From: Candidatus Anderseniibacteriota bacterium
GTDB lineage: Bacteria; Patescibacteriota; Andersenbacteria; UBA10190
DNA: 64,000 nt
Assembly: GCA_035288905.1 (NCBI GenBank)
Contig: DATDYZ010000001.1
Coordinates: forward strand, 19,172-83,171
Direction: 5' to 3'
Made by a program: the position numbers and the translations under genes. Of this stretch, positions 37,702 through 61,541 are shown in pieces. How positions within the stretch are numbered: the stretch's first letter is position 1; each line of letters opens with the position of its first letter. Under the pieces are notes generated by a model. The model did no database searches, was not told the origin of the DNA, and saw only the letters and a list, made by a program, of their open reading frames with translations.

Positions 37702-37705
37702 AGGC

Positions 37706-37735
37706 GTTATTCCAAGGCTTTGCCTTGGAATGCGT
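37706..37735. repeat. REP-C palindrome copy
   Basis: TTCCAAGGCTTTGCCTTGGAA. Confidence 0.8.
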
Positions 37736-37770
37736 TTGCTCACAACTTTTTCTGGGCGTATCATTTTTGT

Positions 37771-43814: not shown

Positions 43815-43847
43815 GGAATCATTCCGACACCTGGTGTCGGAATCTTG
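43815..43847. repeat. REP-D palindrome TTCCGACACCTGGTGTCGGAA
   Basis: Perfect hairpin. Confidence 0.8.
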
Positions 43848-43863
43848 TGATAGAATATTTACT

Positions 43864-44523
43864 ATGGGGTATCGAATAAATGGGTTTGAGCGGGGCGGTG
43901 TATACCACATATTTACGCGCGGTGTGGAGAAGAGGGAAATTTTTATGGATCATTCCGATCGTGTACGGTTTATCTCGCAAATGATTCATTGCTTGCCCGA
44001 TGAGCCTATTCTGAATTTTTCGCATGCACAAAAACTAAAACGAAAGTTGATAATAACCAGCGAAGGGGAGGGGTTAGCGGATATTCTTTGTTATTGCTTA
44101 ATGAATAATCATGTTCATTTTTTGCTCCGAGAAAATGTTGATGGTGGTATTTCGCGCTATATGCAACGGCTGCTCAATAGCTTCGCTCGGTATTTTAATG
44201 TTAAATACGAGCGCACTGGGGCGTTATTTGCGGGTCCGTTTCGGTCTGTTCCTGTGGTAAGTGATGATCAGCTTTTGCACGTAAGTAGGTATATTCATCT
44301 TAATCCTCATGCTGCGCATATAGTAAAGGATGTCTTCGCATATCCCTGGTCCTCGTTACGTGCATACTTAAACGACGAAGATTCGAAACTTTATTGCCAC
44401 GCTGACTTTCTTGCGTCATTAATGGATAAAAAAGAATATAAAAAATTCGTTTTCGATCAAGTGAGTTACGAACAATCCTTAGCTGCTTTTCCTGAACTTC
44501 TTTTAGATGATGACTATACTTAA
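43864..44523 (+). CDS. HuH Y1 transposase (RAYT-like), second paralog
   Basis: VYHIFTRGVEKREIF, NNHVHFLL and SRYIHLNPH. Trimmed from track ORF 43834, which starts in the REP. Confidence 0.8.
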   Translation: MGYRINGFERGGVYHIFTRGVEKREIFMDHSDRVRFISQMIHCLPDEPILNFSHAQKLKRKLIITSEGEGLADILCYCLMNNHVHFLLRENVDGGISRYMQRLLNSFARYFNVKYERTGALFAGPFRSVPVVSDDQLLHVSRYIHLNPHAAHIVKDVFAYPWSSLRAYLNDEDSKLYCHADFLASLMDKKEYKKFVFDQVSYEQSLAAFPELLLDDDYT

Positions 44524-44570
44524 TTCCGACACCTGGTGTCGGAATAAGTTCCCTGGTGTCGGAATAAGTT
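44521..44570. repeat. REP-D palindrome plus tandem half-copy
   Basis: TTCCGACACCTGGTGTCGGAATAAGTTCCCTGGTGTCGGAATAAGTT. Confidence 0.75.
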
Positions 44571-44870: not shown

Positions 44871-44893
44871 ATTCCAACACCTGGTGTTGGAAT
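44871..44893. repeat. REP-D variant TTCCAACACCTGGTGTTGGAA
   Basis: Hairpin. Confidence 0.75.
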
Positions 44894-45727: not shown

Positions 45728-45750
45728 ATTCTAACACCAGGTGTTAGAAT
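45728..45750. repeat. REP-D variant TTCTAACACCAGGTGTTAGAA
   Basis: Hairpin. Confidence 0.7.
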
Positions 45751-46079: not shown

Positions 46080-46123
46080 AAGATTGAAATAATTAGAAAA
46101 CCGTGGTATTTTCATGGAATTGT

Positions 46124-47938
46124 ATGGAAATACGCAATTTTTGTATTATCGCGCATATTGATCATGGAAAGAGCACACTGGCAGACCGGATGCTCGAGTT
46201 AACGCATACCGTCGAAATGAGAGATATGCAGGCGCAGCTACTAGACTCTATGGAGCTGGAGCGAGAAAAAGGAATAACCATTAAGCTTCAACCAGTACGC
46301 ATGGAGCATAAAGGCTTTGTATTAAATTTAATAGATACTCCCGGGCATGTAGATTTCCAGTACGAAGTATCAAGAAGTCTGAAAGCAGTTGAAGGGGCTA
46401 TTTTACTTGTAGATGCTACGCAAGGTGTGCAAGCACAGACGGTTTCTAATTTATATTTTGCACTCGAAAAAAATCTGGAAATAATTCCTGTTATTAATAA
46501 AATAGACTTACCAGCTGCAGACGTTGAGGGCGTATCTCAAGAAATTATTAATCTTTTGGGTGCAAAAAAAGAAGATATACTTCATATATCTGCGAAGACG
46601 GGACAGGGGGTTCCGGAATTATTGGATGCAGTGATTGCGCGGGTGCCGGCGGCCACGCGCCCCTCACCCCCTGCCACGGCAGGGCCCTCTCCCAGAACGG
46701 GAGAGGGGAGCGAAAACCTGCGGGCGCTTATATTTGATTCGGTGTACGACGACTACAAGGGTGTGGTTGCATATGTGCGGGTTATGGAAGGAAGCGTTTC
46801 GCAAGGCGATGCGATTACGTTTTTAGGGACAGATGTTGATGATAGGGTAGTTGAAGTGGGCGTATTTAAACCACAATTTACTTCGCGTGAAAAAATTGGA
46901 GCGGGAGAAATTGGATATATTGCAACTGGCTTAAAAAATATTCGACAGGCTCGCGTGGGCGATACAATTACAAAAACAGTAGAAAAACATGAAGTGGAGC
47001 AACTCCCCGGCTTTGCAATTCCTCAACCGAAAGTCTTTGCTGGATTATACCCTGTAGATGGAAGCGACTTCCCTGTATTGCGCGAAGCAATGAGCCGACT
47101 GCAACTCAATGATTCTAGTTTAACTGCTCATATGGAGCGAAGCCATGCACTCGGGCAAGGTTTTCGATGTGGGTTTTTAGGAATGCTCCATTTAGAAATT
47201 GTGCAAGAGAGGCTGCGAAGAGAATTCGACGTAGAGTTGGTAGTCACGACTCCGAGCGTGCTCTACCACGTGGTGTTAACCTCCGGCGAGAAAAAAGATA
47301 TTCATACACCAGATGCGTTTCCGGATCCGAGTTTTGTCACATCTATGGAAGAGCAATGGTGTAAGGCAGATATATTACTTCCTCAGAAGTATCTCGGAGC
47401 CGTATTTGAAGTTATGGCACAACATGAAGGGAATTTAATTTCGCAAGAAGTATTGGGAACAGACCGCATGCTATTGCATTATGAATTGCCACTTCGAGAA
47501 CTTGTTGTCGATTTGTATGATCAACTAAAATCTATAACAAGTGGATATGGTTCGTTAAGTTATGATGTGATTGGTTGGAGGTCGGCAGACGTGGTGAAGC
47601 TGACAATCTTAATGAATCATGAAGTTGCTGAAGCGTTGTCATTAATTATTCCACGTACCAAAGCAGAAGCAATCGGGCGCCGAGTAGTCGATAAGCTAAA
47701 GGATCTTGTGCCGCGACAACAATTCGCAGTGCCTATTCAAGCAGCAATCGGTGGCAAAGTTGTAGCTCGCGAGACGGTACCCGCGCTTCGAAAAGACGTG
47801 ACGGCAAAGCTGTATGGAGGAGACGTAACTCGAAAACGAAAACTCTTAGATAAGCAGAAAAAAGGAAAAAAACGCCTTTCCACGAAAGGGTCTATCAATT
47901 TACCCCCAGAAGCATATATTCAGTTGCTCAAAAGGTGA
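46124..47938 (+). CDS. lepA: Translation elongation factor 4 (LepA), carrying an in-frame Family B repeat insertion
   Basis: IIAHIDHGKSTLADR and DTPGHVDF G-motifs, and the C-terminal LepA domain. The extra segment ATRPSPPATAGPSPRTGEGSE lies before the conserved LRALIFDS. Confidence 0.92.
   Translation: MEIRNFCIIAHIDHGKSTLADRMLELTHTVEMRDMQAQLLDSMELEREKGITIKLQPVRMEHKGFVLNLIDTPGHVDFQYEVSRSLKAVEGAILLVDATQGVQAQTVSNLYFALEKNLEIIPVINKIDLPAADVEGVSQEIINLLGAKKEDILHISAKTGQGVPELLDAVIARVPAATRPSPPATAGPSPRTGEGSENLRALIFDSVYDDYKGVVAYVRVMEGSVSQGDAITFLGTDVDDRVVEVGVFKPQFTSREKIGAGEIGYIATGLKNIRQARVGDTITKTVEKHEVEQLPGFAIPQPKVFAGLYPVDGSDFPVLREAMSRLQLNDSSLTAHMERSHALGQGFRCGFLGMLHLEIVQERLRREFDVELVVTTPSVLYHVVLTSGEKKDIHTPDAFPDPSFVTSMEEQWCKADILLPQKYLGAVFEVMAQHEGNLISQEVLGTDRMLLHYELPLRELVVDLYDQLKSITSGYGSLSYDVIGWRSADVVKLTILMNHEVAEALSLIIPRTKAEAIGRRVVDKLKDLVPRQQFAVPIQAAIGGKVVARETVPALRKDVTAKLYGGDVTRKRKLLDKQKKGKKRLSTKGSINLPPEAYIQLLKR
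46659..46712. repeat. Family B-type palindrome (CCCTCTCCCAGAACGGGAGAGGGG with GC-rich flanks) inside the lepA CDS
   Basis: Seen directly. It sits in-frame. Confidence 0.7.
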
Positions 47939-47945: not shown

Positions 47946-47977
47946 CTGTCATCCCGGGCTTGACCCGGGATCCAGGT
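47946..47977. repeat. Family A repeat, half copy
   Basis: TGTCATCCCGGGCTTGACCCGGGATCCAGG. Confidence 0.7.
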
Positions 47978-48086
47978 TGTATTAATATACTGAGCAACTT
48001 TCTTGAGATGCCATGAACAATCTCAAGAGGCCAGGTGCATAACCGTAGAGGAAGAATAAGGCAGCCTACACCCTGTCACTGACCTC

Positions 48087-48130
48087 CTTTTATGTGTCGC
48101 CCGGCTTAGCTCAACGATTGAGTGATGCCG
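48087..48130 (+). terminator. Terminator-like stem-loop GCCCGGC...GCCGGG followed by TTTTTTCTTTTTTT
   Basis: Seen directly. Confidence 0.45.
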
Positions 48131-48266
48131 GGTTTTTTCTTTTTTTATTCTCCTATATACTTTCATATATGCAACAAGACCAAGAAATTCTACCTCCAGA
48201 ACAGGCCAGAGAGTGGCTGAATGAATTTCTGGTAGAGCAGCAAGAAGAAAGTAAGTAGTTTTTCCT

Positions 48267-48809
48267 ATGCCATTTGATTTTCAAAAAACAAAACTAGTAG
48301 GGGTAGTTCATATAACCCCCAAAATATTCCCAGATGAACGAGGTGAGTTTACGGAGCTCTATAAAGATTCTGCGTTTACTGAGGCGGGAATTGATGCCCA
48401 CTTCGTGCAAGTAAATCATTCTAAAAGTAAAAAGCATGTAATACGAGCGTTACACTACCAACTCCCGCCAAAAGCTCAAGGAAAATTAGTACAAGTAAGC
48501 CATGGAAGTGTATTTGATGTCGCAGTTGATATTCGAAAAGACTCAGTAACATATGGCAAATGGGTAGGAGTAACACTTACTGCGAGAGAAAAAAATATGC
48601 TGTATATTCCGCCCGGCTTTGCGCATGGATTTTGCACGCTAGAAGATGACACCGAGCTTGTGTATTTCTGCACGGACGAATATTCGAAAGAGCACGAGAG
48701 GGGAATTGTATGGAACGACCCTGCAATTGGAATTGAGTGGCCCGTACAAGATCCCATAATTTCCGACCGAGATGCCAATTTCCCGGTATTGGCGGACGCG
48801 GAACACTAG
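48267..48809 (+). CDS. rfbC: dTDP-4-dehydrorhamnose 3,5-epimerase
   Basis: RmlC cupin motifs: LHYQ, FDVAVDIRK.S.TYGKW, YIPPGFAHGF. Confidence 0.87.
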   Translation: MPFDFQKTKLVGVVHITPKIFPDERGEFTELYKDSAFTEAGIDAHFVQVNHSKSKKHVIRALHYQLPPKAQGKLVQVSHGSVFDVAVDIRKDSVTYGKWVGVTLTAREKNMLYIPPGFAHGFCTLEDDTELVYFCTDEYSKEHERGIVWNDPAIGIEWPVQDPIISDRDANFPVLADAEH

Positions 48810-48817
48810 GATTCTAC

Positions 48818-48846
48818 TTGACAAAGTAACACTATGACAGTAATAT
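48818..48846 (+). promoter_or_regulatory. Sigma70-like promoter TTGACA-17-TAATAT
   Basis: Seen directly. Confidence 0.5.
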
Positions 48847-48965
48847 GTCCGTAGTGTTCTTTACAATTTAGTGTTGTGAAGACCCATGGCACCGGGAAGG
48901 GCCAATTTCGAATGAAGGTCCCCGCAATTTTCATCCATTGAATTTACGATGAAAGGTATTGAACG

Positions 48966-49253
48966 ATGAACAAGAAACAAACTGAAAAAGGAGAGTTTGT
49001 TCAGGATCAGTCAGGTCTTTGGCACTACACTCCCACGGATCATGTATCGGCATACATCACACGTTGGATTGTAGACGCCCTCGCTAATATGCCCGATGGA
49101 CCAGCATGGTTTTGGTTTAATAATCTGCCAGCTCCAATTGTTCCAAACGATACCCCAGAAACACTGGAGAGGCGTTGGTATAAGGTCAATAATCCGTATA
49201 AAGATCAAGTACCATTTTTGAAAAGCCTCTTGGAGTTTATAAGTGAGGCATGA
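48966..49253 (+). CDS. Hypothetical small protein
   Basis: ORF of 95 aa with its own promoter and a leader of about 110 nt. I recognise no family. Confidence 0.4.
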   Translation: MNKKQTEKGEFVQDQSGLWHYTPTDHVSAYITRWIVDALANMPDGPAWFWFNNLPAPIVPNDTPETLERRWYKVNNPYKDQVPFLKSLLEFISEA

Positions 49254-49283
49254 CAATATGTATGCTACGGTCAGAAACACGCA

Positions 49284-49320
49284 GCCCCTCGACGCAATCG
49301 CGACGAGGGGTTTTTATTTT
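49284..49320 (+). terminator. Rho-independent terminator (CCCCTCG...CGAGGGG followed by a T-run)
   Basis: Seen directly. Confidence 0.55.
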
Positions 49321-49335
49321 TCTGACCCGACGCTC

Positions 49336-49365
49336 TTGACAGATAGTATTCTTACACTGTATATT
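49336..49365 (+). promoter_or_regulatory. Sigma70-like promoter TTGACA-18-TATATT
   Basis: Seen directly. Confidence 0.5.
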
Positions 49366-49437
49366 GCGCATCAGGAAAAGGACAGCATCGTAGCTATTCT
49401 TTTTTGTTTCGTTGACAACTTGTGCGAGGTCTCAAAG

Positions 49438-50253
49438 ATGTCAAATATTCAATATGATTTTACTGGCAAGGTAGCAATCGTAACCGGCGGAGCGTCTGGT
49501 ATTGGCAAGGCTACAGTGAAGATGTTTGCCGAAGCCGGCGCGAATGTTGTGCTGGTGGATGTTAATAAGGGTCGTGGTGAAACAGTAGCGGAGGAGCTCG
49601 GTGAGAGAGTTTGTTTTGTCTTTGCAGACGTAGCAAGAACCCGGCATGCCGAAGAGGTGGCGCAAAGGGCGATGCTTGCCTTCGGGAAGATTGATATTCT
49701 CGTGAACAATGCGGGTATCGAGTACAACGACCGAGGAAATCTTGTCACGATGCCACACGATGACATGATGCGCATTATCCAAGTGAACCTCTTCGGATAT
49801 ATCCATATGGTTCGCGCGTGCCTGCCTCATATGAATTTCGGCGGGCGTGTGGTGAACGTGAGTTCCCTGCAAGGTCTTGCAGCGGCTCTTCCAGGTACAA
49901 GTTATCAGTCTACCAAGGCAGCTATTCTTGGGATGACGAGGGCTCTGGCTATCGAATATGCGCTTGAGGGGATAACCTTCAACAGTGTTTGTCCTGGTGC
50001 TATATGTACTGAAGGAATGGGTGCGGCGCGGGCAGGAGGATCGGCATCGCTTGACCCAACTCGCAGGCGTATTCCTATGGGGCGCAGAGGGTGGCCACAT
50101 GAGGTTGCTGCGTTGATCGCCTTCTTGGCTTCAGATGCAGCTAGTTATATGACCGGTGGCGATTATGTCGTGGACGGTGGGTTGCTTATAAGCCTCAGTG
50201 CAGACGACCCGTCCAAGCCAACGCCAAATGTTTCAAACGATCCGGATCGGTAA
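49438..50253 (+). CDS. Short-chain dehydrogenase/reductase (SDR)
   Basis: TGGASGIGKA, NNAGI and S...Y...K catalytic residues. Trimmed from track ORF 49243. GC is visibly higher than in neighbouring genes. Confidence 0.85.
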   Translation: MSNIQYDFTGKVAIVTGGASGIGKATVKMFAEAGANVVLVDVNKGRGETVAEELGERVCFVFADVARTRHAEEVAQRAMLAFGKIDILVNNAGIEYNDRGNLVTMPHDDMMRIIQVNLFGYIHMVRACLPHMNFGGRVVNVSSLQGLAAALPGTSYQSTKAAILGMTRALAIEYALEGITFNSVCPGAICTEGMGAARAGGSASLDPTRRRIPMGRRGWPHEVAALIAFLASDAASYMTGGDYVVDGGLLISLSADDPSKPTPNVSNDPDR

Positions 50254-50321
50254 GCACAGTAACAAGGTGCTCTCAAAGGGCTCATTGCGGAATTCAATTC
50301 TGCGTGGGCCCTCTTTTTTAT

Positions 50322-50351
50322 TTGACAAAGTTGGCTGTATATGTATATAAT
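50322..50351 (+). promoter_or_regulatory. Sigma70 consensus promoter TTGACA-18-TATAAT, followed by a structured leader of about 128 nt
   Basis: Seen directly. Confidence 0.55.
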
Positions 50352-50479
50352 GCGAAATCGTTTGAGACCAGTGTTTTGCCTTATATATGGTGTTTTATAG
50401 GCAAAACAGTGTTCTCAAGGTGAGACCACTATGTCCCGAAACGGACATGAACGGATCTTTGACAAACAGGATAACGTAC

Positions 50480-51385
50480 ATGAAGCTCAGAAATACGGAA
50501 TTTGCGGATGTGATAGCCAGGTTTATATCAGTCCGAACAGGACTATTGGAGGACTGGGAAAAGTTCGCTGGAATCCAGGGATCAAAACAGCAGCGCGAAG
50601 GCGCAAGCACTGTATTGAAAGCAGACCTGTGGGCCGAGCAGCGGTTGGTTCCCGTTCTTCGTTACTTGTGGCCAGGTGTGCCTTTTCTCTGCGAAGAGGC
50701 AGGAAATTCCGGTCTCGCAACGCTCGTCCCAGGCATTGAACTGCTTTCGTGGGATGATGATGTCACCAACCTGCCCGACAATTTCGTCAGTGTTGATGGA
50801 GTTGACGGATCGGCACTCTATGCCAATCAGTGCTTTGAGCTCGTTGCGATGATGGCCGGTCTTGTTAAGGACGGTCGTCCAAGCGCTGGTATTGTCACGA
50901 TGCTTGATGATGGAGCAATGTATCACACTGGTGTCAACGGGCAGCCAGGTGTATTTAAGGGAGATAAGCCCCATGAAGAATGGCTTGTCCCGGTACGTCC
51001 GCTCAACAAGTGCTTGATCTGCGTCGATGACTGTGGAAGTGTGGATGAGGACTTCCGCAAACTCGTGACAAACATGTTGACGGGAACGAAAGATTTTGCG
51101 TATCCGATGAATACCCCGTCGGGCGCCGGCCCAATCAATGTGCTCAGAGGAAGAGCAGCTGCCTATGTCTCGAGTAACGCTCGAAACTGGGACCAGGTTG
51201 CAACTGCAGCTCTTTTGGGGGCGGCTGGCATGATTGTTCGGTGTTTGGACGGATCTGAAGTACCCTGGAAGCAGACTCGAATGCCGGCAGTGGTATTCGC
51301 TCGGGACGAGGAAACTTTCTGCTATATTCAGAAGCAGGCCAAGGAGTACCTCGAACTGCAGAAAAAGAAGCAGTCTGCCGCGTAA
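50480..51385 (+). CDS. Inositol monophosphatase-family phosphatase (IMPase/CysQ/FBPase superfamily), higher-GC paralog
   Basis: LCEEAG, SVDGVDGS (DPIDGT-like) and NWDQVATAALLGAAG (the WD.AAG motif). Start chosen by alignment with the paralog at 53159. Confidence 0.72.
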   Translation: MKLRNTEFADVIARFISVRTGLLEDWEKFAGIQGSKQQREGASTVLKADLWAEQRLVPVLRYLWPGVPFLCEEAGNSGLATLVPGIELLSWDDDVTNLPDNFVSVDGVDGSALYANQCFELVAMMAGLVKDGRPSAGIVTMLDDGAMYHTGVNGQPGVFKGDKPHEEWLVPVRPLNKCLICVDDCGSVDEDFRKLVTNMLTGTKDFAYPMNTPSGAGPINVLRGRAAAYVSSNARNWDQVATAALLGAAGMIVRCLDGSEVPWKQTRMPAVVFARDEETFCYIQKQAKEYLELQKKKQSAA

Positions 51386-51412
51386 GTAAAAGCGCTTTAT
51401 GCGCCAACAACA

Positions 51413-51447
51413 AGCCGATTAGATTCACCTCTAATCGGCTTTTTTCT
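51413..51447 (+). terminator. Rho-independent terminator AGCCGATTAG...CTAATCGGCT followed by TTTTTT
   Basis: Seen directly. Confidence 0.6.
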
Positions 51448-51453
51448 TGCCCT

Positions 51454-51483
51454 TGACAAGTATAGTGTTTTAGATATACAATG
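51454..51483 (+). promoter_or_regulatory. Sigma70-like promoter TTGACA-16/18-TATACAAT, followed by a structured leader of about 125 nt
   Basis: Seen directly. Confidence 0.5.
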
Positions 51484-51610
51484 CATAGTTCTTTTAAGGG
51501 TCATGAGGGTGGCGTTTTGTCTCGTATTTCGGGCTAAAACGGTGCTCTCACGGTGAGAATACCAGATTTCAGAAATATGATCGTTCGTTACAAATTGATG
51601 GAGTACAGTT

Positions 51611-52309
51611 ATGCGCAAGGTGATTTCTTTGAGTGACATGAATGTTTTGGGAAAAGGCGGTTGGCTCAGCCTTTACAAGCTGAGTCCAGAACAGACGGGA
51701 TTGAAGTTCAATTCTGAAATCGCCGCGAGAAATAACCAGAAGTATGGCGCAGCAAAATGTCTGCGCCTGGTTACAAACCAGTCGCTAGAGAGGCGGGAAG
51801 ATACGGATATTCAGAGCCTCTGTGCAACGCTTCGGGAAATTGGATTGGCAAACATCGCGGTTCAATTCTTGGCTGCGATCCGACCATTCACATTTTTTGA
51901 CGGACCGGGGTTGGAGCGGCTGGAGGTGAACTACCAAATCGAGTTGCCCGGTGGAATCATTGAACCCGATGAAGACGCTCGGCTGGGTGCTTTGCGGGAA
52001 GCCATGGAAGAAGGCGGAAAAGCGAAGACCATTCAGTGTGCGTCTCTTATGGTGTATAGCTCTCCGTTTGATGCGGGAAGCCATGTTGAGATGTACTCCA
52101 TTGAAACAGCGCTTGTGTATGCGGAAACACTTGCGCCACCGGCTCGAGAAGGTGTCATTCCCGAAAAGTGCGCGCTCGTTCCTTTGCTTGAAGTGCAGCA
52201 ATGGCTTCTTGGAAAAGAATGTCAGGGTATCCCGATTGAGGGATACGCCAAGACTGCGCTTGCTTTGCTCGGACTGGAACTCCACGGAGGATGGAGAGCT
52301 TTGAGCTAA
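51611..52309 (+). CDS. Nudix hydrolase
   Basis: The Nudix box GIIEPDEDARLGALREAMEEGG matches Gx5Ex7REUxEExGU. Confidence 0.78.
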   Translation: MRKVISLSDMNVLGKGGWLSLYKLSPEQTGLKFNSEIAARNNQKYGAAKCLRLVTNQSLERREDTDIQSLCATLREIGLANIAVQFLAAIRPFTFFDGPGLERLEVNYQIELPGGIIEPDEDARLGALREAMEEGGKAKTIQCASLMVYSSPFDAGSHVEMYSIETALVYAETLAPPAREGVIPEKCALVPLLEVQQWLLGKECQGIPIEGYAKTALALLGLELHGGWRALS

Positions 52310-52343
52310 CGAGACATTCTCGTTCGTTCACATCTTTCACAAT

Positions 52344-52377
52344 AGGCGACAGATTCAAACCCTGTCGCCTTTTTTTA
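52344..52377 (+). terminator. Rho-independent terminator AGGCGACAG...CTGTCGCCT followed by TTTTTTT
   Basis: Seen directly. Confidence 0.6.
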
Positions 52378-52407
52378 TTGACAAAATAGATGACATCTTG
52401 TTAATAT
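52378..52407 (+). promoter_or_regulatory. Sigma70-like promoter TTGACA-17-TTAATA, abutting the terminator
   Basis: Seen directly. Confidence 0.5.
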
Positions 52408-52454
52408 GCTAAGTTGGTCTTTGCCAATTTACGTTACTTGATTTAGGGCTCTTT

Positions 52455-53063
52455 TTGAGAGAAAATGAAAGCATGATTACAAAACTCATGGTGTTAGACC
52501 GCGACGGATTGCTCAACGTAGACGTTGGGTATACCTACAAAGTGGAAGATTTGAAACTTGCCCCAGGCGTTATTGAAGGCCTTACGCTTCTCAAGAGTCT
52601 TGGGTTTCGGTTTGCCATTGCAACCGGCCAGTCTGGAATTGGGAAGGGTAAGTACACCGAAGCAGACATGGACGCGTTCAATATCGCATTGCTTGCCGAG
52701 CTTGCAAAAAGCGACATTCAGGTCGACGCCGTTGCATTTTGCCCACACGACAAGGGCGAAGGGTGCAAGTGCAGGAAGCCGGGAGTTGGTATGCTTGAGC
52801 AAATTGAAGCAAAGCTTGGTCCGATCGACTGGTCAAAAGCATGGGGAAGTGGCGACAAGCCTGCAGACTCAAAGATGATTCTCGCGATGGGAGGTTCTGC
52901 GGTTCTGGTAGAAAGCGGACCACACAATAACTCGGCTGGGAAAGCGTACTGGGATGAAGAACCAGAACTTCTGAAAGAAGTCATGGGAAACCCAAGAAAC
53001 TTCGTGGCGCACGATCTTGGCGCAGCTGCGTTGGTTATTCAACAGCAGTTGGCAGCATCGTAA
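52455..53063 (+). CDS. HAD-IIIA phosphatase, GmhB-like (D,D-heptose 1,7-bisphosphate phosphatase family), second copy
   Basis: VLDRDGLLN and the zinc motif CPHDKGEGCKCRKP. Confidence 0.78.
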   Translation: MRENESMITKLMVLDRDGLLNVDVGYTYKVEDLKLAPGVIEGLTLLKSLGFRFAIATGQSGIGKGKYTEADMDAFNIALLAELAKSDIQVDAVAFCPHDKGEGCKCRKPGVGMLEQIEAKLGPIDWSKAWGSGDKPADSKMILAMGGSAVLVESGPHNNSAGKAYWDEEPELLKEVMGNPRNFVAHDLGAAALVIQQQLAAS

Positions 53064-53086
53064 TTCCAACACCAGTTGTTGGAAAA
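53061..53086. repeat. Degenerate REP-D-like palindrome TTCCAACACCAGTTGTTGGAA
   Basis: Hairpin. Confidence 0.55.
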
Positions 53087-53158
53087 TGAAGAACAGTACG
53101 ACCGTTTGGGATTTCCCAGGCGGTCGATTTTATATTTAAATGACTATATACTAAACGT

Positions 53159-54028
53159 ATGGAATTACAGAAAATAACAACATTATTTCAGACAACGGGA
53201 CAATTATTAATTGACGATTGGGGAAGACTTACAGGTATAGTTAGTGAAAAAGAAATACTTGAAGGATCAAGTTCCGTTTTACATGCAGATTGGATTGCAG
53301 AAAAGGCATATGTGCCTCTTGCAACAAAGTTGTGGCCTAACGTGCCAGTTTTGTGCGAAGAAGCTGGAACATCCGGAGTCGCAGATTTAATTTCAGGAGT
53401 TTCTTTGCTTCCACATGAAGATAATGTTATTGATTTGCCGTCAGACTTCATTAGTGCAGATGGAGTGGACGGTTCGGCGCTGTATGCAAATGGTATGTTT
53501 ACGTTAGTTTCTATGATGGCAGGGCTTATAAAAGACGGAAAACCTCACGCTGGGGTACTGATGGTGCTTGGTGAGAAGAAGCTGTATCACACAGGGATTG
53601 ATGGAAAGCCAGGTGTGTTTTATGGAGATCTCTCATATAATGAGTGGCGTTTGCCTGCTCGTCCTCTGAAACAGTCTTTGATAGGAACGGACGACAATAA
53701 GTCTGTTGATGCCAATTTTCGCAATCTTGTGATTAATAAATTAATGGGCAGTTCTGGTTTTAGATATCCTCTCAATATGCCCTCAGGCGCAGGGGCTCTC
53801 GCAGTTTTAAAGGGTAATCTTGCGGTATACGTAACGAGTAATGCGCGAAACTGGGACTTGGCTACCACGTCAGCACTTTGCATGGCTGCTGGTCAGGTTG
53901 TTCGTTGTTTGGACGGTTCCGAAGTGCCCTGGAATGTAGTGCGAATGCCGCCTGTCGTATTTGCTCGCGACGAAGAAACATTTTTATACGTGCACACATT
54001 AGCAAAAAACTGGCTTAACACTGTATAA
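53159..54028 (+). CDS. Inositol monophosphatase-family phosphatase, native-GC paralog of 50480..51385
   Basis: About half the residues are identical to the upstream paralog, with the same motifs (LCEEAG, SADGVDGS, NWDLATTSALCMAAG). Confidence 0.72.
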   Translation: MELQKITTLFQTTGQLLIDDWGRLTGIVSEKEILEGSSSVLHADWIAEKAYVPLATKLWPNVPVLCEEAGTSGVADLISGVSLLPHEDNVIDLPSDFISADGVDGSALYANGMFTLVSMMAGLIKDGKPHAGVLMVLGEKKLYHTGIDGKPGVFYGDLSYNEWRLPARPLKQSLIGTDDNKSVDANFRNLVINKLMGSSGFRYPLNMPSGAGALAVLKGNLAVYVTSNARNWDLATTSALCMAAGQVVRCLDGSEVPWNVVRMPPVVFARDEETFLYVHTLAKNWLNTV

Positions 54029-54048
54029 GGTCCTAGAATAGATGGTAC

Positions 54049-54077
54049 TTGACAATAGTACAATATAGGTATATAAT
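54049..54077 (+). promoter_or_regulatory. Sigma70 consensus promoter TTGACA-17-TATAAT
   Basis: Seen directly. Confidence 0.55.
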
Positions 54078-54137
54078 GAACCAAGTGCTGATTTTTGGCT
54101 GTTTTTTGGCAATTTCCCTCTGAAGGAGGAAAGAGTA

Positions 54138-54770
54138 ATGACAAATCGAATTACCGATCATGTGTTTGACGCTCGAAGGGTGATGAAGTGCGTACCTGGA
54201 CTTGTCCGAACGCAATACACCGAAGCTGATGTTTGTAAGCTGCTTTCAGACGAAACGCTTGCGAGGTTGCTTCCGTCGGTTCGACAGCAGCCGGAAGTGT
54301 TGCCGCCTATTCATGTGATTCGATGCGGTAAGGAGCCAGCGATGCCTGGGGGCATCATAATTGGGGCTTCGTGGAAGATTGAACAACACCTACATTGTGA
54401 GGATTTGACATGGAGCGCTGACTCTGTGCGATTGGAAGAATTTCCTGAAAAAAAGATGATCAGGGATGATCGTCCTTGGGTTTTTCTACCATTGCCTAAA
54501 AAACCATTTGCGAACGCCAATGTTGCAAATTACCTTTTACGGCACACTCACCTGATTCCGGATTCATGGAAGATGAAAAATGACGGTGAACCTGTGGAGA
54601 TTCTGTTTCTCGGAACTCTTTTTGGGAAACATTCGGCAGCTCAACATGATGAGATGTCTACTACCTTCCACGTTCAGACGTTGTACTTTTCGCGTCGAAA
54701 GTGGAGAAGGGGGTTGATGAATTTGACTTCCTGGCGATGCGGGGCAAGTCGCGTTGCCGTCCTCACATAA
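54138..54770 (+). CDS. Hypothetical protein (210 aa) preceded by a strong GGAGGA ribosome-binding site
   Basis: ORF with a Shine-Dalgarno sequence. I recognise no family. Confidence 0.5.
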   Translation: MTNRITDHVFDARRVMKCVPGLVRTQYTEADVCKLLSDETLARLLPSVRQQPEVLPPIHVIRCGKEPAMPGGIIIGASWKIEQHLHCEDLTWSADSVRLEEFPEKKMIRDDRPWVFLPLPKKPFANANVANYLLRHTHLIPDSWKMKNDGEPVEILFLGTLFGKHSAAQHDEMSTTFHVQTLYFSRRKWRRGLMNLTSWRCGASRVAVLT

Positions 54771-54799
54771 CGTCTTCGTGCAAACAAACGCCGATCGTG

Positions 54800-54846
54800 A
54801 TTGAATTATTCAATCAGGGTCGGCTTTTTTCTTTTTGTTTTGCTTT
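54800..54846 (+). terminator. Rho-independent terminator (GCCGATCGTGATTGAAT...ATTCAATCAGGGTCGGC followed by TTTTTT)
   Basis: Seen directly. Confidence 0.55.
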
Positions 54847-54932
54847 TGCAAAATAACCCCGCACTGCGCCCCGCGAAGCTTTAGCGTAGTGGGGTGTTCC
54901 CTTTTGAGTCCGAACACCTATATAATCAATAT

Positions 54933-55757
54933 ATGAACCTCGTAATTGTCGGCGCGAAGGGAATGTTGGGAAGTATGCTTTCTACCGTATTTTCGGAATA
55001 TAAGCCGTTGCTTGTTGATAGGGATGAAATAGATATTACTAATATAGATAGTGTGCGCAGTGTGCTTCGAGAAGCAAATGCTACGCTTATTATAAACGCA
55101 GCAGCATATACAAATGTTGACGATGCAGAAACTCATACAGAAGATGCTTTTTTGGTAAATGAAACCGGGGTAAAAAATCTTGCGGAAGTTGCAAAAGAAC
55201 TTTCTGCAACGCTCGTTCACTTTAGTACGGATTACGTGTTCCCTGGTACAAATTCGGATGGCTACTTGGAAACAGATTCTCCAGGCCCTGCAGTAAATCA
55301 ATATGGCAATTCTAAACTTGCGGGCGAACGTGCACTGAAAGAAAGTGGATGTAATTTTTATTTAATTCGTACGGCGTGGTTGTACGGGTCAAATGGCAAA
55401 AACTTTGTTGATACTATGTTGAAACTAGCCGAAACAAAGAAAAACTTACAAGTGGTTGAAGATCAAGTTGGATGCCCGACGTATACGAAAGACGTTGCAA
55501 TGTATGTGAAAGTGTTACTTGATGAAAAATATCCGTTTGGAATTTACCATGCCGTAAATAGCGGGAAGGCGTCGTGGTTTGCATTTGCACAAAAGATTTT
55601 TGAATACAAAGATAACTTGCCCGTGGTAGTGAAGCCAGTTTCTTCGTCGCAGTTTCCTCGCCCTGCAAAACGCCCGGCGTATAGTATTTTGAAAAACACC
55701 AAAGGGCCAGGTATAAGAGCGTGGCAAGAAGCACTACGAGAATACTTGACGAAATAA
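54933..55757 (+). CDS. rfbD: dTDP-4-dehydrorhamnose reductase
   Basis: RmlD-like: N-terminal GAKGMLG Rossmann motif and Y...K. Trimmed from track ORF 54894. Confidence 0.85.
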   Translation: MNLVIVGAKGMLGSMLSTVFSEYKPLLVDRDEIDITNIDSVRSVLREANATLIINAAAYTNVDDAETHTEDAFLVNETGVKNLAEVAKELSATLVHFSTDYVFPGTNSDGYLETDSPGPAVNQYGNSKLAGERALKESGCNFYLIRTAWLYGSNGKNFVDTMLKLAETKKNLQVVEDQVGCPTYTKDVAMYVKVLLDEKYPFGIYHAVNSGKASWFAFAQKIFEYKDNLPVVVKPVSSSQFPRPAKRPAYSILKNTKGPGIRAWQEALREYLTK

Positions 55758-55840
55758 CGTAGTTATACTAGTGTAGCAACTAGAAATTTGTTCGTTGTCA
55801 TTTTGAAGTTTCCGTAAAAAAATAGAGAGGGAAAAAAGTC

Positions 55841-56542
55841 ATGAGCCGAAAAATTAGGGGCATCGTGTTTGATTTGGAAGGAACAATCGTTTCAGTGGAA
55901 GAGTGCCATACGGGCGGGTTCTCAGCTGCTGCGCTTTCGTATGGCATTGAGATTACTCCCCAGGAACTTCTCGAAATACCAGGGTACGTCGGCGCGGGCG
56001 ACAAGAGGGCCATTGATATGATCCTCGAGAAATTCCGCCGAGCAGACGTTGACGCTGAGGAGTTTCGCATTCGAAAGATGGAGCGCTACAACGAGCTGCT
56101 GAACGTGGCAGACATTGCATTGCGACCAGGGTTCGCCGACTTCTGTTGCCAAGCGAGCAGGCATTGGCTTCAAATTGCTATTGCGTCATTGACCCCAAGA
56201 GTTCAGGCTAACCCTTTGATTAAGAGGATTGGGCTTGAGCAACTTGTTCCAATCGAAAGGATTGTCCTTCGTGAGGACGTCACAAATGTGAAGCCAAATC
56301 CGGAAGTATTTTTGGAGGCAGCAGCACGGATCAACGTTCATCCGCGGAGCGTACTTGTGTTCGGGGATTCGGTGCATGACATGACGGCAGCAGTTGCGGC
56401 CGGTTCCGTTCCTATCGGAATGCCGTGCAATTTCAGAGATCCATTCATCGGAGACTTACTGAAAGCCGGCGCCGTAGATGTTTTTAAAGATTGGCGAAGC
56501 ATCAGATTAGAGGGATTGCTCAAAATTGTTCAGGGTTTGTAA
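55841..56542 (+). CDS. HAD-IA family hydrolase (beta-phosphoglucomutase/phosphatase-like)
   Basis: Motif I VFDLEGTIV and motif IV FGDSVHDMTAA. Higher GC. Confidence 0.75.
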   Translation: MSRKIRGIVFDLEGTIVSVEECHTGGFSAAALSYGIEITPQELLEIPGYVGAGDKRAIDMILEKFRRADVDAEEFRIRKMERYNELLNVADIALRPGFADFCCQASRHWLQIAIASLTPRVQANPLIKRIGLEQLVPIERIVLREDVTNVKPNPEVFLEAAARINVHPRSVLVFGDSVHDMTAAVAAGSVPIGMPCNFRDPFIGDLLKAGAVDVFKDWRSIRLEGLLKIVQGL

Positions 56543-56568
56543 CAGCATTGCTGCAACTAACTCTCCTA

Positions 56569-56602
56569 AAGCCCCAACGTACATACGTTGTGGGCTTTTT
56601 TA
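56569..56602 (+). terminator. Rho-independent terminator AAGCCCCAACGT...ACGTTGTGGGCTT followed by TTTTT
   Basis: Seen directly. Confidence 0.55.
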
Positions 56603-61429: not shown

Positions 61430-61541
61430 TCCCCTCTCCCCAATTGGGGAGAGGGTTAGGGAGAGGGCAACCCACGACGCAACGACAGCCCTCACCCCTG
61501 CCTGCGGGCTAGGCCCTCTCCCCCATATGGGTAGAGGGGAA
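61430..61541. repeat. Family B composite repeat (two palindromes flanking GGGCAAC..ACGACAGCCCTCACCCC)
   Basis: Seen directly. Confidence 0.75.

What the first reader, a model, noticed from the sequence alone, without database searches (positions are those of the whole stretch)
48810..54850. Run of higher-GC single-gene cassettes, each with its own terminator, consensus promoter and long leader
From just after rfbC, six consecutive genes are laid out as terminator / TTGACA-17/18-TATAAT-like promoter / leader of about 100-130 nt / CDS. They are a small hypothetical protein, an SDR, an IMPase-family phosphatase, a Nudix hydrolase, a GmhB-like HAD phosphatase and a hypothetical 210-aa protein. 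In three places the terminator T-run abuts the -35 box (50320/50322, 51447/51454, 52377/52378).

By eye, the SDR, IMPase-1, Nudix, GmhB-like and HAD (55841) genes are clearly more GC-rich than the surrounding rfb/gmh genes and than the second IMPase paralog. I estimate about 50% against about 40-44%, not computed. That suggests horizontally acquired modules.

Functionally, a Nudix (ADP-sugar pyrophosphatase-like) enzyme, two IMPase-type sugar-phosphate phosphatases and a second heptose-bisphosphate-type phosphatase next to the ADP-heptose and dTDP-rhamnose pathways could form an undescribed nucleotide-sugar turnover or editing module.
Basis: partly seen in the sequence, partly recalled or inferred. 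Interest (0 to 1): 0.7.

Follow-up and report, generated by a model that had tools for sequence, protein, structure and literature searches.

The report
Self-contained sugar-enzyme gene cassettes, CPR bacterium
Inside the surface-sugar gene cluster of an uncultured groundwater bacterium (Candidatus Andersenbacteria) sits a row of single genes, each with its own on-switch and stop signal and an unusual codon style; related genomes carry the same kind of row, so it is a shared, reshuffled accessory island, not a fresh import.

Summary
Six perfect-TTGACA promoter matches lie in 48810-54850, where shuffles give 0.12. Six strong terminators follow the six genes. SDR, IMPase-1, Nudix, GmhB-like and HAD-55841 have GC3 of 0.49-0.54, against 0.352±0.024 for 35 core genes (z 5.9-7.9). 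Only three leaders are about 113-122 nt; the other three are 54-66 nt. hyp95 is not GC-shifted.

Two related genomes (L007, L010) carry the same LepA-rfbC…rmlD-heptose backbone, with orthologous or paralogous cassettes in changed order and number. The GC3 contrast is the same there, although synonymous sites are saturated. Cassette codon usage agrees across genomes (r 0.78-0.83) and differs from each genome's own core (r 0.20-0.46). This points to a long-lived flexible gene pool within CPR bacteria. It does not point to recent import from non-CPR donors.

The IMPase-like family is tiny and divergent: 86 relatives among 1.84 billion representatives. It repeatedly neighbours Nudix, GmhB-like and heptose genes. 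The Nudix model matches ADP-ribose/ADP-sugar pyrophosphatases.

New: the IMPase-1 and Nudix leaders share a conserved hairpin element, with nine copies in five genomes and no Rfam match.

The enzymatic function remains inferred.

The parts
48818..48846 (+). promoter-like site of hyp95 (TTGACA-17-TAATAT, 10/12)
48966..49253 (+). hyp95, small conserved protein of unknown function; GC3 .396, not GC-shifted
   Evidence: Orthologue in L010 at 61% identity, dN .32 against dS 2.2. No Pfam or NCBIfam hit.
49284..49318 (+). intrinsic terminator after hyp95 (-19.7 kcal/mol plus T-run)
49336..49365 (+). promoter-like site of SDR (TTGACA-18-TATATT, 11/12), conserved in L007
49438..50253 (+). classical SDR, glucose-1-dehydrogenase-like subfamily; GC3 .49
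   Evidence: Pfam adh_short_C2 206.8 bits. NCBIfam PRK07231 219.3 bits against cut-off 215. GC3.
50278..50321 (+). intrinsic terminator after SDR (-20.1 kcal/mol); its T-run ends 2 nt before the next -35 box
50322..50351 (+). promoter-like site of IMPase-1 (TTGACA-18-TATAAT, 12/12)
50362..50430 (+). IMPase-1 leader element. The long hairpin has arms 50362-50381 and 50399-50418. It overlaps the short conserved hairpin 50408-50430 (GTGTTCTCAAGGTGAGA core).
   Evidence: (z -3.8)
50480..51385 (+). IMPase-1, a divergent IMPase-superfamily phosphatase; GC3 .54. The start at 50480 is set by N-terminal alignment with homologues; in-frame ATGs at 50387 and 50447 fall inside the leader.
51412..51448 (+). 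intrinsic terminator after IMPase-1 (-16.7 kcal/mol)
51453..51482 (+). promoter-like site of Nudix (TTGACA-18-TACAAT, 11/12)
51504..51563 (+). Nudix leader element. The long hairpin has arms 51504-51524 and 51530-51550. It overlaps the short conserved hairpin 51541-51563.
51611..52309 (+). Nudix hydrolase with an intact Nudix box; its fold falls in the ADP-ribose/ADP-sugar pyrophosphatase clade; GC3 .52
52344..52377 (+). intrinsic terminator after Nudix (-14.6 kcal/mol); its T-run abuts the next -35 box. The same GGCGAC…GTCGCC stem follows Nudix-like genes in L007 and L010.
52378..52407 (+). promoter-like site of GmhB-like (TTGACA-18-TAATAT, 10/12)
52473..53063 (+). GmhB-like HAD-IIIA phosphatase, a paralogue (38% identity) of the GmhB at 58201; GC3 .52
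53064..53084 (+). REP-like palindrome TTCCAACACCAGTTGTTGGAA directly after the stop codon; conserved in L007 and L010
53099..53135 (+). intrinsic terminator after GmhB-like (-20.9 kcal/mol)
53159..54028 (+). IMPase-2, paralogue of IMPase-1 (55% identity) with core-like GC3 of .35. It has no -35/-10 consensus. A TATACT box ends 6 nt before the ATG (leaderless type).
54049..54077 (+). promoter-like site of hyp210 (TTGACA-17-TATAAT, 12/12)
54138..54770 (+). hyp210, protein of unknown function with no family hit; GC3 .47
   Evidence: the AlphaFold model is unusable
54790..54831 (+). intrinsic terminator after hyp210 (-21.8 kcal/mol). A near-identical terminator follows a different gene in L007.
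54933..55757 (+). RmlD, a backbone gene with GC3 .35; a TATAAT box ends 6 nt before the ATG
55841..56542 (+). HAD-IA phosphatase (beta-phosphoglucomutase-family hydrolase), GC3 .53, with its own terminator at 56568-56598. L010 has a different gene in this slot.

Best explanation
WHAT IT IS. This is a flexible accessory-gene island set inside the conserved rhamnose/heptose surface-glycan locus of an Andersenbacteria-type CPR bacterium. The backbone runs LepA, small ORF, rfbC … GmhB-like, IMPase-2 … rmlD … gmhA, kinase, gmhB, adenylyltransferase, epimerase, rmlA, then glycosyltransferases.

ARCHITECTURE (shown). The island is built from self-contained one-gene transcription units. Each has a near-consensus sigma-70 promoter, a leader, a coding sequence and an intrinsic terminator. 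In three places the terminator T-run runs up to, or to within four bases of, the next -35 box.

ORIGIN (inferred). The units belong to a separate codon-usage class (GC3 about 0.5) that is shared by the equivalent genes in related genomes. They are therefore best read as members of a gene pool that is exchanged, duplicated and reshuffled among CPR lineages. The conserved promoter/leader and terminator sequences may serve as the joints for this reshuffling. They are not a recent import into this genome.

FUNCTION (inferred from families and gene neighbourhood). The enzymes act on ADP-heptose-pathway or related ADP-sugar intermediates. The Nudix would split an ADP-sugar into AMP and a sugar phosphate. 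The IMPase-like, GmhB-like and HAD phosphatases would remove phosphates. The glucose-1-dehydrogenase-like SDR would oxidise or reduce the sugar. Together they would tune or divert the nucleotide-sugar supply for the surface glycan.

REGULATION (motif shown, role inferred). IMPase-1 and Nudix, together with IMPase-like, Nudix-like and heptosyltransferase-like genes in relatives, share a conserved leader hairpin. This probably puts them under one common control.
For: ARCHITECTURE. Six promoter matches against 0.12 expected. Six terminators of -14.6 to -21.8 kcal/mol.

COMPOSITION. GC3 z-scores are 5.9-7.9.

CONSERVED BACKBONE, VARIABLE CONTENT.
- L007 reads LepA(95%), rfbC(76%), IMPase-like286, SDR(66%), GmhB-like(73%), IMPase-2(79%), Nudix-like(38%), GT9-like, IMPase-like300.
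- L010 reads LepA(94%), rfbC(82%), 264aa, 98aa, hyp95(61%), Nudix-like278, 129aa, two GmhB-like genes, IMPase-2(79%), Nudix-like247, RmlD(82%), 219aa, cupin, then the heptose genes.
- The GC3 contrast is the same in both.
- Synonymous sites are saturated in core and cassette genes alike (dS 1.1 to unbounded).

CODON USAGE. Cassette RSCU correlates across the three genomes (r .78-.83). It correlates with a higher-GC CPR contig, L029 (r .62-.65), but poorly with each genome's own core (r .20-.46). The cores correlate at r .90.

REGULATORY DNA. Intergenic sequences are far better conserved than synonymous sites. The GmhB-like to IMPase-2 spacer shows 84% column identity, against about 50% third-position identity. 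Promoter-plus-leader modules are nearly identical in front of different genes in L007 and L010.

MOBILITY OF A SINGLE UNIT. In L016 an SDR homologue (61%) with its own terminator, promoter-like site and leader lies alone between copies of the 3' end of tRNA-Ala.

FUNCTIONAL LINKAGE. The IMPase-like gene lies next to GmhB-like (window, L007, L008, L010), Nudix (window, L007, L010, L029), rmlD (L032) and gmhA-kinase-gmhB-nucleotidyltransferase (L009). The Nudix model (pLDDT 80) has ADP-ribose/ADP-sugar pyrophosphatases as its best PDB matches (E 1e-9).

LEADER MOTIF. There are nine copies, all in cassette leaders, and none elsewhere in 151 kb.
Against: - No mobility gene, attachment site or flanking direct repeat was found around the cassettes in the window. 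The two IS200-like Y1 genes lie 4-11 kb upstream.
- Exchange within a pool is inferred from codon usage and from changed gene order. There are too few relatives for a gene-tree against species-tree test: 13 IMPase and 7 Nudix homologues.
- With saturated dS, ancient common acquisition cannot be formally separated from repeated exchange.
- rpsJ, a core ribosomal gene, also has GC3 of .53. So high GC3 is not an exclusive mark of accessory genes here.
- hyp95 has cassette architecture but core-like GC3.
- Promoters, transcript ends and all enzyme activities are predictions.
- Covariation support for the short hairpin is weak.
Confidence: 0.55

Rival explanations
1. Recent horizontal acquisition of separate modules by this genome from higher-GC, non-CPR donors.
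For: GC3 is 6-8 sd above the core. SDR homologues at 47-54% identity carry names from Atribacterota and DPANN archaea. An SDR homologue sits alone between tRNA-derived repeats in L016.
Against: Orthologues lie at the same locus in L007 and L010 with the same GC3 contrast, although dS is saturated. The IMPase-like and Nudix families have no close relatives outside this small set of contigs, which come mostly from groundwater and aquifer metagenomes (Rifle, Hainich). There are no phage or plasmid matches.
Confidence: 0.08
2. One ancient acquisition of the block by the common ancestor of these lineages from a very GC-rich donor, followed by vertical descent, local rearrangement and incomplete amelioration.
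For: The position after rfbC is shared, and several cassettes are orthologous in three genomes.
Against: Synonymous sites have turned over at least once. Even so, all cassettes in all three genomes sit at a similar GC3 (.43-.56) with a shared codon usage (r .78-.83). IMPase-2, a paralogue in the same family, is fully core-like in all three genomes. Gene content, copy number and order differ. Distances disagree between genes: IMPase-2 and Nudix make L007 and L010 the closest pair, while rfbC makes the window and L010 the closest pair.
Confidence: 0.2
3. The GC3 shift is codon bias selected in highly expressed genes, since these genes have consensus promoters. It would then not be a mark of foreign origin.
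For: Strong promoters coincide with high GC3. C-ending two-fold codons rise from 26% to 52%. rpsJ also has high GC3.
Against: EF-Tu, directly upstream of the window, has GC3 of .33. The other ribosomal-protein genes tested have .27-.40. Four-fold sites shift as well. hyp95 has a consensus-type promoter but core-like GC3.
Confidence: 0.05
4. For the leader element only: the shared inverted repeat is a DNA operator for a repressor that overlaps the transcription start, and not an RNA structure.
For: In six of nine copies the repeat begins 2-6 nt after the -10 box. The core TCTCA-N3-TGAGA is a palindrome whose central pairs never vary, so they cannot tell DNA from RNA. The covariation score is only marginal (34/500 shuffles).
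Against: In three copies the repeat lies 50-75 nt downstream of the promoter. There it is preceded by an extra arm that forms a 20-bp hairpin with three compensatory pairs. Eleven of the paired cells are G-U, which pair only in the transcribed strand. The covariance model scores the + strand 11-33 bits higher than the - strand.
Confidence: 0.3
5. Prophage morons, integron cassettes or an assembly chimera.
For: The promoter-gene-terminator anatomy with deviant GC is the textbook description of a phage moron (own knowledge).
Against: There are no phage, integrase or defence genes. PHROGs gives only generic hits and PADLOC gives none. No relatives occur in 2.9 million viral contigs or in the phage and plasmid records. 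The units carry promoters, unlike integron cassettes. Six contigs read from public assemblies carry the same protein and neighbouring genes.
Confidence: 0.03

Closest known systems
Phage 'morons' (independent promoter-gene-terminator units inserted between prophage genes; Hendrix and colleagues, own knowledge)
   Same: Single genes bracketed by their own promoter and terminator. Nucleotide composition differs from the neighbours. They are inserted between genes of a conserved cluster, and also between rpsJ and rplC at window 427-1450.
   Different: There is no prophage context. The units form a row inside a chromosomal glycan locus. They are conserved, with reshuffling, across species whose synonymous sites are saturated. 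They encode sugar-metabolism enzymes.
Flexible surface-polysaccharide islands and 'minimal mobile elements' (variable genes exchanged between conserved flanks by homologous recombination; own knowledge)
   Same: A conserved backbone with variable slots, atypical GC, and different genes in the same slot in different genomes. Example: HAD-55841 in the window against a 219-aa protein plus a cupin in L010.
   Different: The variable genes are hydrolases and an oxidoreductase, not glycosyltransferases or polymerases. GC is higher than the genome, not lower. Each gene is its own transcription unit.
Nudix hydrolases that police nucleotide-sugar pools: AspP/NudF (ADP-sugar pyrophosphatase) and Gmm/WcaH (GDP-mannose hydrolase in the colanic-acid cluster) (own knowledge)
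   Same: A Nudix enzyme of the ADP-sugar/ADP-ribose pyrophosphatase fold, encoded inside a polysaccharide-precursor gene cluster.
   Different: Sequence identity to solved members is only 15-22%. It fails the NudE equivalog cut-off (20.7 against 169 bits). Its substrate is unknown. It is paired with a private IMPase-like family.
GmhB (D-glycero-D-manno-heptose 1,7-bisphosphate 7-phosphatase)
   Same: HAD-IIIA fold, the DRDG nucleophile motif and the Cys/His zinc loop CPH…CKCRKP. It is 38% identical to the genome's own GmhB.
   Different: It scores 134 bits against the 178-bit equivalog cut-off, which the neighbouring true GmhB passes (180 bits). It is a diverged paralogue, present in two copies in L010.
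IMPase / CysQ / HisN family (Li+-sensitive phosphatases)
   Same: Pfam PF00459 scores above cut-off. The metal-binding motifs are kept: EE, D-x-x-D-G-S and W-D.
   Different: The best equivalog hit (CysQ) reaches 38 bits against a cut-off of 229. Only 86 relatives at E≤1e-3 exist among 1.84 billion representatives, although the superfamily is very widespread (own knowledge).

Membership tests
Sigma-70-type promoter | -35 TTGACA and -10 TATAAT hexamers spaced 16-18 nt apart, upstream of a gene | tested here: met
   Six sites score 10-12 of 12, all intergenic and 54-122 nt before start codons. Shuffles give 0.12.
Sigma-70-type promoter | Transcription actually starts there | not testable with these tools
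   This needs 5'-end mapping. The only indirect support is conservation of the boxes in L007 and L010.
Intrinsic (Rho-independent) terminator | GC-rich hairpin followed by a T-run, downstream of a stop codon | tested here: met
   Six sites of -14.6 to -21.8 kcal/mol. Eight of the compact + strand intergenic terminators found in the 64 kb lie in 48100-56600.
Nudix hydrolase superfamily | Nudix box GX5EX7REUXEEXGU and a Pfam PF00293 score above cut-off | tested here: met
   The box reads G-IIEPD-E-DARLGAL-RE-A-M-EE-G-G. PF00293 scores 26.8 against 21.1 bits.
ADP-ribose/ADP-sugar pyrophosphatase subfamily of Nudix | Whole-protein similarity to characterised members | tested here: inconclusive
   By fold, the top 50 PDB matches are nearly all ADP-ribose/ADP-sugar/ADP-compound or NDP-sugar hydrolases (NUDT5, NudF, NudE, Thermus ADPRase, a Bdellovibrio NDP-sugar hydrolase), together with a Bacillus methanolicus Nudix. 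E is 1e-9 to 8e-7 but TM only .31-.50. By sequence, NudE scores 20.7 against a cut-off of 169.
ADP-ribose/ADP-sugar pyrophosphatase subfamily of Nudix | Hydrolysis of an ADP-sugar | not testable with these tools
   An enzyme assay is needed.
IMPase superfamily | PF00459 above cut-off and the metal-binding motifs | tested here: met
   Scores are 60.2 and 46 bits against 27. EE, DGVDGS and WD are conserved in the main members.
CysQ / HisN / SuhB equivalogs | NCBIfam equivalog score above cut-off | tested here: not met
   CysQ scores 38 and 28.5 bits against 228.8. HisN scores about 19 bits against 275.
GmhB | NCBIfam NF006506 equivalog score of at least 178 | tested here: not met
   The GmhB-like protein scores 134.2. 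The gene at 58201 scores 180.3.
Classical SDR, glucose-1-dehydrogenase subfamily | TGxxxGIG motif, the S…YxxxK catalytic residues, and the subfamily HMM cut-off | tested here: met
   TGGASGIG and S…YQSTK are present. PRK07231 scores 219.3 against 215, a narrow pass. This does not fix the substrate.
Horizontally acquired genomic island | Composition deviating from the host genome | tested here: met
   GC3 z-scores of 5.9-7.9. RSCU correlation with the core is r .26.
Horizontally acquired genomic island | Mobility genes, a tRNA or att repeats at the borders; absence from close relatives | tested here: not met
   No flanking repeat, integrase or tRNA was found. The island type is present in L007 and L010. 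Only the SDR homologue in L016 has att-like repeats.
Phage moron | Location within a prophage | tested here: not met
   The neighbours are LepA, rfb and gmh genes. PHROGs gives no phage-specific hits, and the viral and phage searches are negative.
Integron gene cassette | Promoterless ORF with an attC site, next to intI | tested here: not met
   Each unit carries its own promoter. No integrase is seen in the annotated neighbourhood. attC sites were not searched with a dedicated model.
Known cis-regulatory RNA (Rfam) | A match to any Rfam 15 covariance model | tested here: not met
   Nothing at gathering score. At E≤10 there are only two chance-level hits, and neither lies on a leader.

The most novel reading that the evidence does not exclude
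The shared leader could be a new RNA switch confined to CPR bacteria. Its two mutually exclusive hairpins would respond to a nucleotide-sugar or sugar phosphate of the heptose pathway, or to a protein that senses one. These are the conserved short hairpin with a YUCUC-ANGGU-GRGA apex, and, in the long form, a 20-bp hairpin that sequesters the short hairpin's 5' arm. The switch would co-ordinate an ADP-sugar hydrolase, IMPase-like phosphatases and a heptosyltransferase-like gene. In parallel, the genome would maintain two gene classes. One is core: GC3 about .35, often with a -10 box only and no leader. The other is accessory: GC3 about .5, with a consensus -35/-10 promoter plus a leader. These classes would be held apart by selection or continual exchange, not by recency of transfer.
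Probability: 0.1. Interest if true: 0.8.

Novelty: new variant of a known kind. Interest (0 to 1): 0.45.

Why it matters
CPR bacteria depend on other cells, and their surface glycans are likely central to attachment, yet their gene regulation and accessory metabolism are almost unstudied.

This locus gives a concrete and compact case in three respects:
- It contains a private, highly divergent IMPase-like family, an ADP-sugar-pyrophosphatase-like Nudix and a GmhB paralogue, all tied to ADP-heptose and dTDP-rhamnose genes. This is a candidate control or diversion branch for nucleotide-sugar supply, and it can be tested with purified enzymes.
- It contains a row of one-gene transcription units whose codon-usage class persists across genomes with saturated synonymous divergence. 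That bears on how flexible genes circulate in very small genomes.
- It contains a conserved leader element with no Rfam match, which could be probed directly.

None of this overturns known principles. It extends known kinds (moron-like units, flexible glycan islands, Nudix control of sugar nucleotides) to a new setting.

Tried and rejected
- Rfam at gathering score and at E≤10 found nothing on the leaders.
- PADLOC gave no hit for any cassette protein. PHROGs gave only generic SDR, HAD and Nudix hits.
- The IMPase alignment found no relative in viral contigs. IMPase-1 and Nudix found nothing by tblastn in phage records. The whole region found nothing by blastn in plasmids.
- The motif pattern gave 10 isolated matches in viral contigs. 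I did not examine them further, and they were not linked to any relative of these genes.
- A covariance model of the short hairpin found no copies beyond the nine used to build it, in 151 kb.
- AlphaFold on hyp210 without an alignment gave pLDDT 37, which is unusable, so no fold search was run.
- The idea that high GC3 reflects high expression was rejected after fetching the upstream flank: EF-Tu has GC3 of .33.
- I considered whether GGTGAGA in the motif is the ribosome-binding site. The spacing to the next ATG is inconsistent. It is 5 nt in two copies, one of which is out of frame with IMPase-1, and 20 nt or more in the others. I left this unresolved.
- I considered whether the IS200-like Y1 transposases (37036, 43834) mobilise the cassettes. 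Their flanking palindrome recurs after GmhB-like, but the cassette leader motif does not occur near them. There is no support.
- A first palindrome search was mis-specified by one base and returned nothing. It was corrected.
- Literature searches for ADP-heptose with Nudix, CPR with heptose, Patescibacteria with riboswitch, and Andersenbacteria gave nothing relevant.

Full report
WHERE THIS IS. Public records name the window's proteins as Candidatus Andersenbacteria (CPR/Patescibacteria). Identical sequences occur on contigs from groundwater and aquifer metagenome assemblies. Around the finding the + strand reads as follows:
- LepA (46103-47938);
- a conserved 29-aa small ORF;
- rfbC (48267-48809);
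- the run in question, then RmlD (54933), a HAD phosphatase (55841) and GmhA;
- a PfkB-type heptose kinase, GmhB, a cytidylyltransferase-like nucleotidyltransferase, an HldD-like epimerase and RmlA;
- two glycosyltransferases.
So the run sits in a dTDP-rhamnose plus ADP-heptose surface-glycan locus.

CHECK OF THE ANATOMY: PROMOTERS AND TERMINATORS. They lie at 48818, 49336, 50322, 51453, 52378 and 54049 and score 10-12 of 12, each with a perfect TTGACA. In 500 dinucleotide shuffles of 48810-54850 such sites occur 0.12±0.35 times, with a maximum of 2. The other 58 kb of the window holds three on the + strand and one on the - strand. The - strand site lies 35 nt upstream of the RNase P RNA gene. 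Each of the six genes is followed by a strong hairpin plus T-run, from -14.6 to -21.8 kcal/mol. Eight of the compact intergenic + strand terminators in the window fall in 48100-56600. Two more flank small genes inserted between rpsJ and rplC.

CHECK OF THE ANATOMY: ABUTMENT AND LEADERS. The T-run reaches the -35 box at 50322 and 52378. It stops 4 nt short at 51453. Leader lengths, assuming a start 7 nt after the -10 box, are 113, 66, 122, 122, 59 and 54 nt. 'Long leader' therefore holds for hyp95, IMPase-1 and Nudix only. For IMPase-1 I place the start at 50480, because the N-termini of 12 homologues align there and the NCBI protein is 301 aa. Some gene callers used the in-frame ATG at 50387, which lies in the loop of the leader hairpin.

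CHECK OF THE COMPOSITION. Thirty-five core genes have GC3 of 0.352±0.024. The deviating genes are SDR .493, IMPase-1 .543, Nudix .524, GmhB-like .523 and HAD-55841 .530, giving z-scores of 5.9-7.9. hyp210 is .469 (z 4.9) and hyp95 is .396 (z 1.8). IMPase-2 and RmlD are core-like. GC1 and GC2 barely differ, so the shift is synonymous. It affects four-fold sites (GC4 .36 to .48) and two-fold sites (C-ending .26 to .52). Six contigs read from public assembly records carry the identical Nudix protein with its neighbouring genes, which rules out a chimera.

IS IT A RECENT IMPORT? Three lines of evidence say no.

First, relatives have the same thing in the same place.
- L007 carries LepA (95% identity), rfbC (76%), a degenerate IMPase-like gene, SDR (66%), GmhB-like (73%), IMPase-2 (79%), a Nudix-like gene (38%), a GT9 heptosyltransferase-like gene and a third IMPase-like gene.
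- L010 is a MAG deposited as Saccharibacteria, but its LepA is 94% identical. It carries rfbC, two unknown genes, hyp95 (61%), a second Nudix-like gene, two GmhB-like genes, IMPase-2 (79%), a Nudix-like gene, RmlD (82%), two different genes in the HAD-55841 slot, and then the heptose operon.
- In both genomes the cassette genes have GC3 of .43-.56 and the backbone genes .29-.41.

Second, synonymous sites between the three genomes are saturated in backbone and cassette genes alike. dS runs from 1.1 to unbounded, and third-position identity at conserved residues is about .5. A simple un-ameliorated relic of one transfer should therefore have faded.

Third, cassette codon usage is a class of its own. 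RSCU correlates at r .78-.83 between the cassettes of the three genomes and at r .90 between their cores. It correlates at only r .20-.46 between cassettes and cores. The cassettes resemble a higher-GC CPR contig, L029, from the same aquifer sample (ERZ28563803) as contig L001, which carries this window's locus (r .62-.65).

High expression does not explain the shift. EF-Tu, fetched from the upstream flank, has GC3 of .33, and ribosomal-protein genes other than rpsJ have .27-.40.

SIGNS OF EXCHANGE AND RESHUFFLING.
- Gene order, copy number and membership differ among the three genomes.
- Distances are incongruent. IMPase-2 and Nudix make L007 and L010 the closest pair (89% and 83%). rfbC makes the window and L010 the closest pair.
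- Regulatory DNA is conserved far beyond synonymous sites. The GmhB-like to IMPase-2 spacer shows 84% column identity.
- A near-identical promoter-plus-leader module precedes a GT9-like gene in L007 and a Nudix-like gene in L010.
- The terminator after hyp210 in the window recurs after a different gene in L007.
- In L016, a different genome, an SDR homologue (61%) with its own terminator, promoter-like site, leader and downstream terminator lies alone between the third and fourth copies of a 25-nt repeat. That repeat is the 3' end of tRNA-Ala(CGC). So at least this gene travels as a self-contained one-gene unit.
- Within the window I found no att-like repeat or mobility gene at cassette borders. 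The mechanism of exchange here remains inferred. Homologous recombination through the conserved regulatory joints is the simplest possibility.

WHAT THE GENES ARE.
- The SDR is a classical SDR that narrowly passes a glucose-1-dehydrogenase subfamily model (219.3 against 215 bits).
- IMPase-1 and IMPase-2 are 55% identical. They keep the metal-binding motifs of the IMPase superfamily and pass Pfam. They miss every equivalog model; CysQ scores 38 bits against 229.
- The IMPase-like family is tiny. A word-indexed search of 5.8 billion proteins gave 13 hits. There are 2 loci in 185,579 species genomes, one of them a weak 28% match in a Kiritimatiellota MAG. There are 4 in the metagenome collection. 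An exhaustive HMMER pass over 1.84 billion representatives gave 86 at E≤1e-3 and 7 at E≤1e-30.
- The Nudix has an intact Nudix box and only 7 relatives. Its AlphaFold model (pLDDT 80) finds ADP-ribose/ADP-sugar/ADP-compound pyrophosphatases as nearly all of its top matches (E 1e-9 to 8e-7, TM .31-.50).
- GmhB-like is a 38% paralogue of the locus's own GmhB. It retains the nucleophile motif and the zinc loop but falls below the GmhB cut-off.
- hyp95 is conserved under purifying selection. hyp210 has no detectable relatives in the loci fetched and no usable model.

FUNCTIONAL LINKAGE. The IMPase-like gene neighbours the following:
- GmhB-like in four genomes;
- Nudix in four (window, L007, L010, L029);
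- rmlD in L032 and an HldD-like epimerase in L029;
- a gmhA, kinase, gmhB, HAD-nucleotidyltransferase operon in L009.
This repeated association, across contigs with different GC, is the best evidence that these enzymes work on heptose-pathway or related ADP-sugar intermediates. The chain I propose runs ADP-sugar to sugar phosphate (Nudix), then to free sugar (IMPase-like, GmhB-like or HAD), then to an oxidised or reduced sugar (SDR). It is an inference from family chemistry. AspP and Gmm/WcaH are the closest precedents (own knowledge).

THE LEADERS. The IMPase-1 and Nudix leaders share a 23-nt block, AAAAC-N-GTG-N-TCTCA-N-GGTGAGA. It occurs exactly twice in the window, where 0.01 matches are expected. 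It forms a short hairpin.

Related copies precede an IMPase-1 orthologue (L008), an IMPase (L032), a GT9-like and an IMPase-like gene (L007), and Nudix-like genes (L007, L010). That makes nine copies in five genomes, all on the coding strand in 5' leaders. A covariance model finds no other copy in 151 kb.

The short hairpin is 76% paired, against 32-53% for slid controls. Its central pairs are invariant and its covariation is marginal.

In six copies it begins 2-6 nt after the -10 box. In three copies (both window copies and L007 IMPase-like300) an added upstream arm makes a 20-bp hairpin. That hairpin would compete with the short one, and it has three compensatory pairs and an invariant G·G mismatch among the three sequences.

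A second shared block, TCTTTGACAAA, lies 20-25 nt before the start codons. The SDR and GmhB-like leaders also keep conserved blocks in relatives.

I read this as a shared cis-regulatory element and prefer RNA over a DNA operator. The reasons are the G-U pairs, the strand-specific scores and the long forms far from the promoter. The evidence is thin.

VERDICT. The 'foreign composition' is real. However, it marks a long-lived, CPR-internal flexible gene class, not fresh non-CPR imports. The functional idea is reasonable and now has neighbourhood and fold support, but no direct test. This is a new variant of known kinds: moron-like units, a flexible glycan island and Nudix control of sugar nucleotides. 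It comes with a small, unannotated leader motif as a bonus.

Noticed in passing
window 427-1450: rpsJ and rplC are separated by two small higher-GC3 genes (590-967, GC3 .55; 1087-1413, GC3 .56). These carry a perfect TTGACA-18-TATAAT promoter at 494 and three terminators. The cassette style is the same as in the finding, here splitting the S10 ribosomal operon. rpsJ itself has GC3 of .53, while EF-Tu just upstream has .33.
   Followed up: partly
window 43822-43842, 44524-44544, 44872-44892, 45729-45749, 53064-53084: A REP-like 21-nt palindrome, TTCYRACACCWGGTGTYRGAA, flanks an IS200-like Y1 transposase gene (43834-44523) on both sides. It also follows three other stop codons, including that of GmhB-like. 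The copy after GmhB-like is conserved in L007 and L010. There are 10 strand-matches where 0.2 are expected.
   Followed up: partly
window 15148-15171, 15425-15448, 61432-61455, 63738-63761 (variants at 58753 and 63821): A second repeated element: the perfect 24-bp palindrome CCCTCTCCCCAATTGGGGAGAGGG, in at least four copies.
   Followed up: no
window 53144-53161, 54920-54935, 48150-48172: IMPase-2, RmlD and a conserved 29-aa small ORF (48170-48259) lack a -35/-10 consensus promoter. Each has a TATAMT box ending 6-7 nt before the ATG. This suggests leaderless mRNAs for backbone genes. The boxes are conserved in L007 and L010.
   Followed up: partly
window 47949-48140 and 352-385: The repeat GTCATCCCGGGCTTGACCCGGGATCCA occurs after LepA and after rpsJ. 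The LepA copy is followed by a promoter-like site (47960), about 140 nt without an ORF, and a strong terminator (48100-48132). This could be a small RNA.
   Followed up: no
L016 8680-10227: tRNA-Ala(CGC) is followed by two identical 167-nt tandem units and then a lone SDR gene. Each is bounded by a 25-nt copy of the tRNA 3' end. This looks like an array of small integration events without an integrase on the contig.
   Followed up: partly
window 36323-38364: A cyclodipeptide synthase (PF16715) lies next to a second IS200-like Y1 gene (37036-37701) and an HD-domain hydrolase. It is the lowest-GC gene of the window (.355).
   Followed up: no
L007 2204-3064 and 7902-8768: Two further IMPase-like paralogues have lost the metal-binding residues: EE is replaced, DGVDGS is degraded and WD is lost. 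They are probably non-catalytic copies retained in the island.
   Followed up: partly
window 50431-50739: An ATG 5 nt after the GGTGAGA of the leader motif opens a 102-codon frame that overlaps the start of IMPase-1 out of frame. In L007 the equivalent ATG is the in-frame start of IMPase-like300. This could be an upstream ORF or a relic.
   Followed up: no
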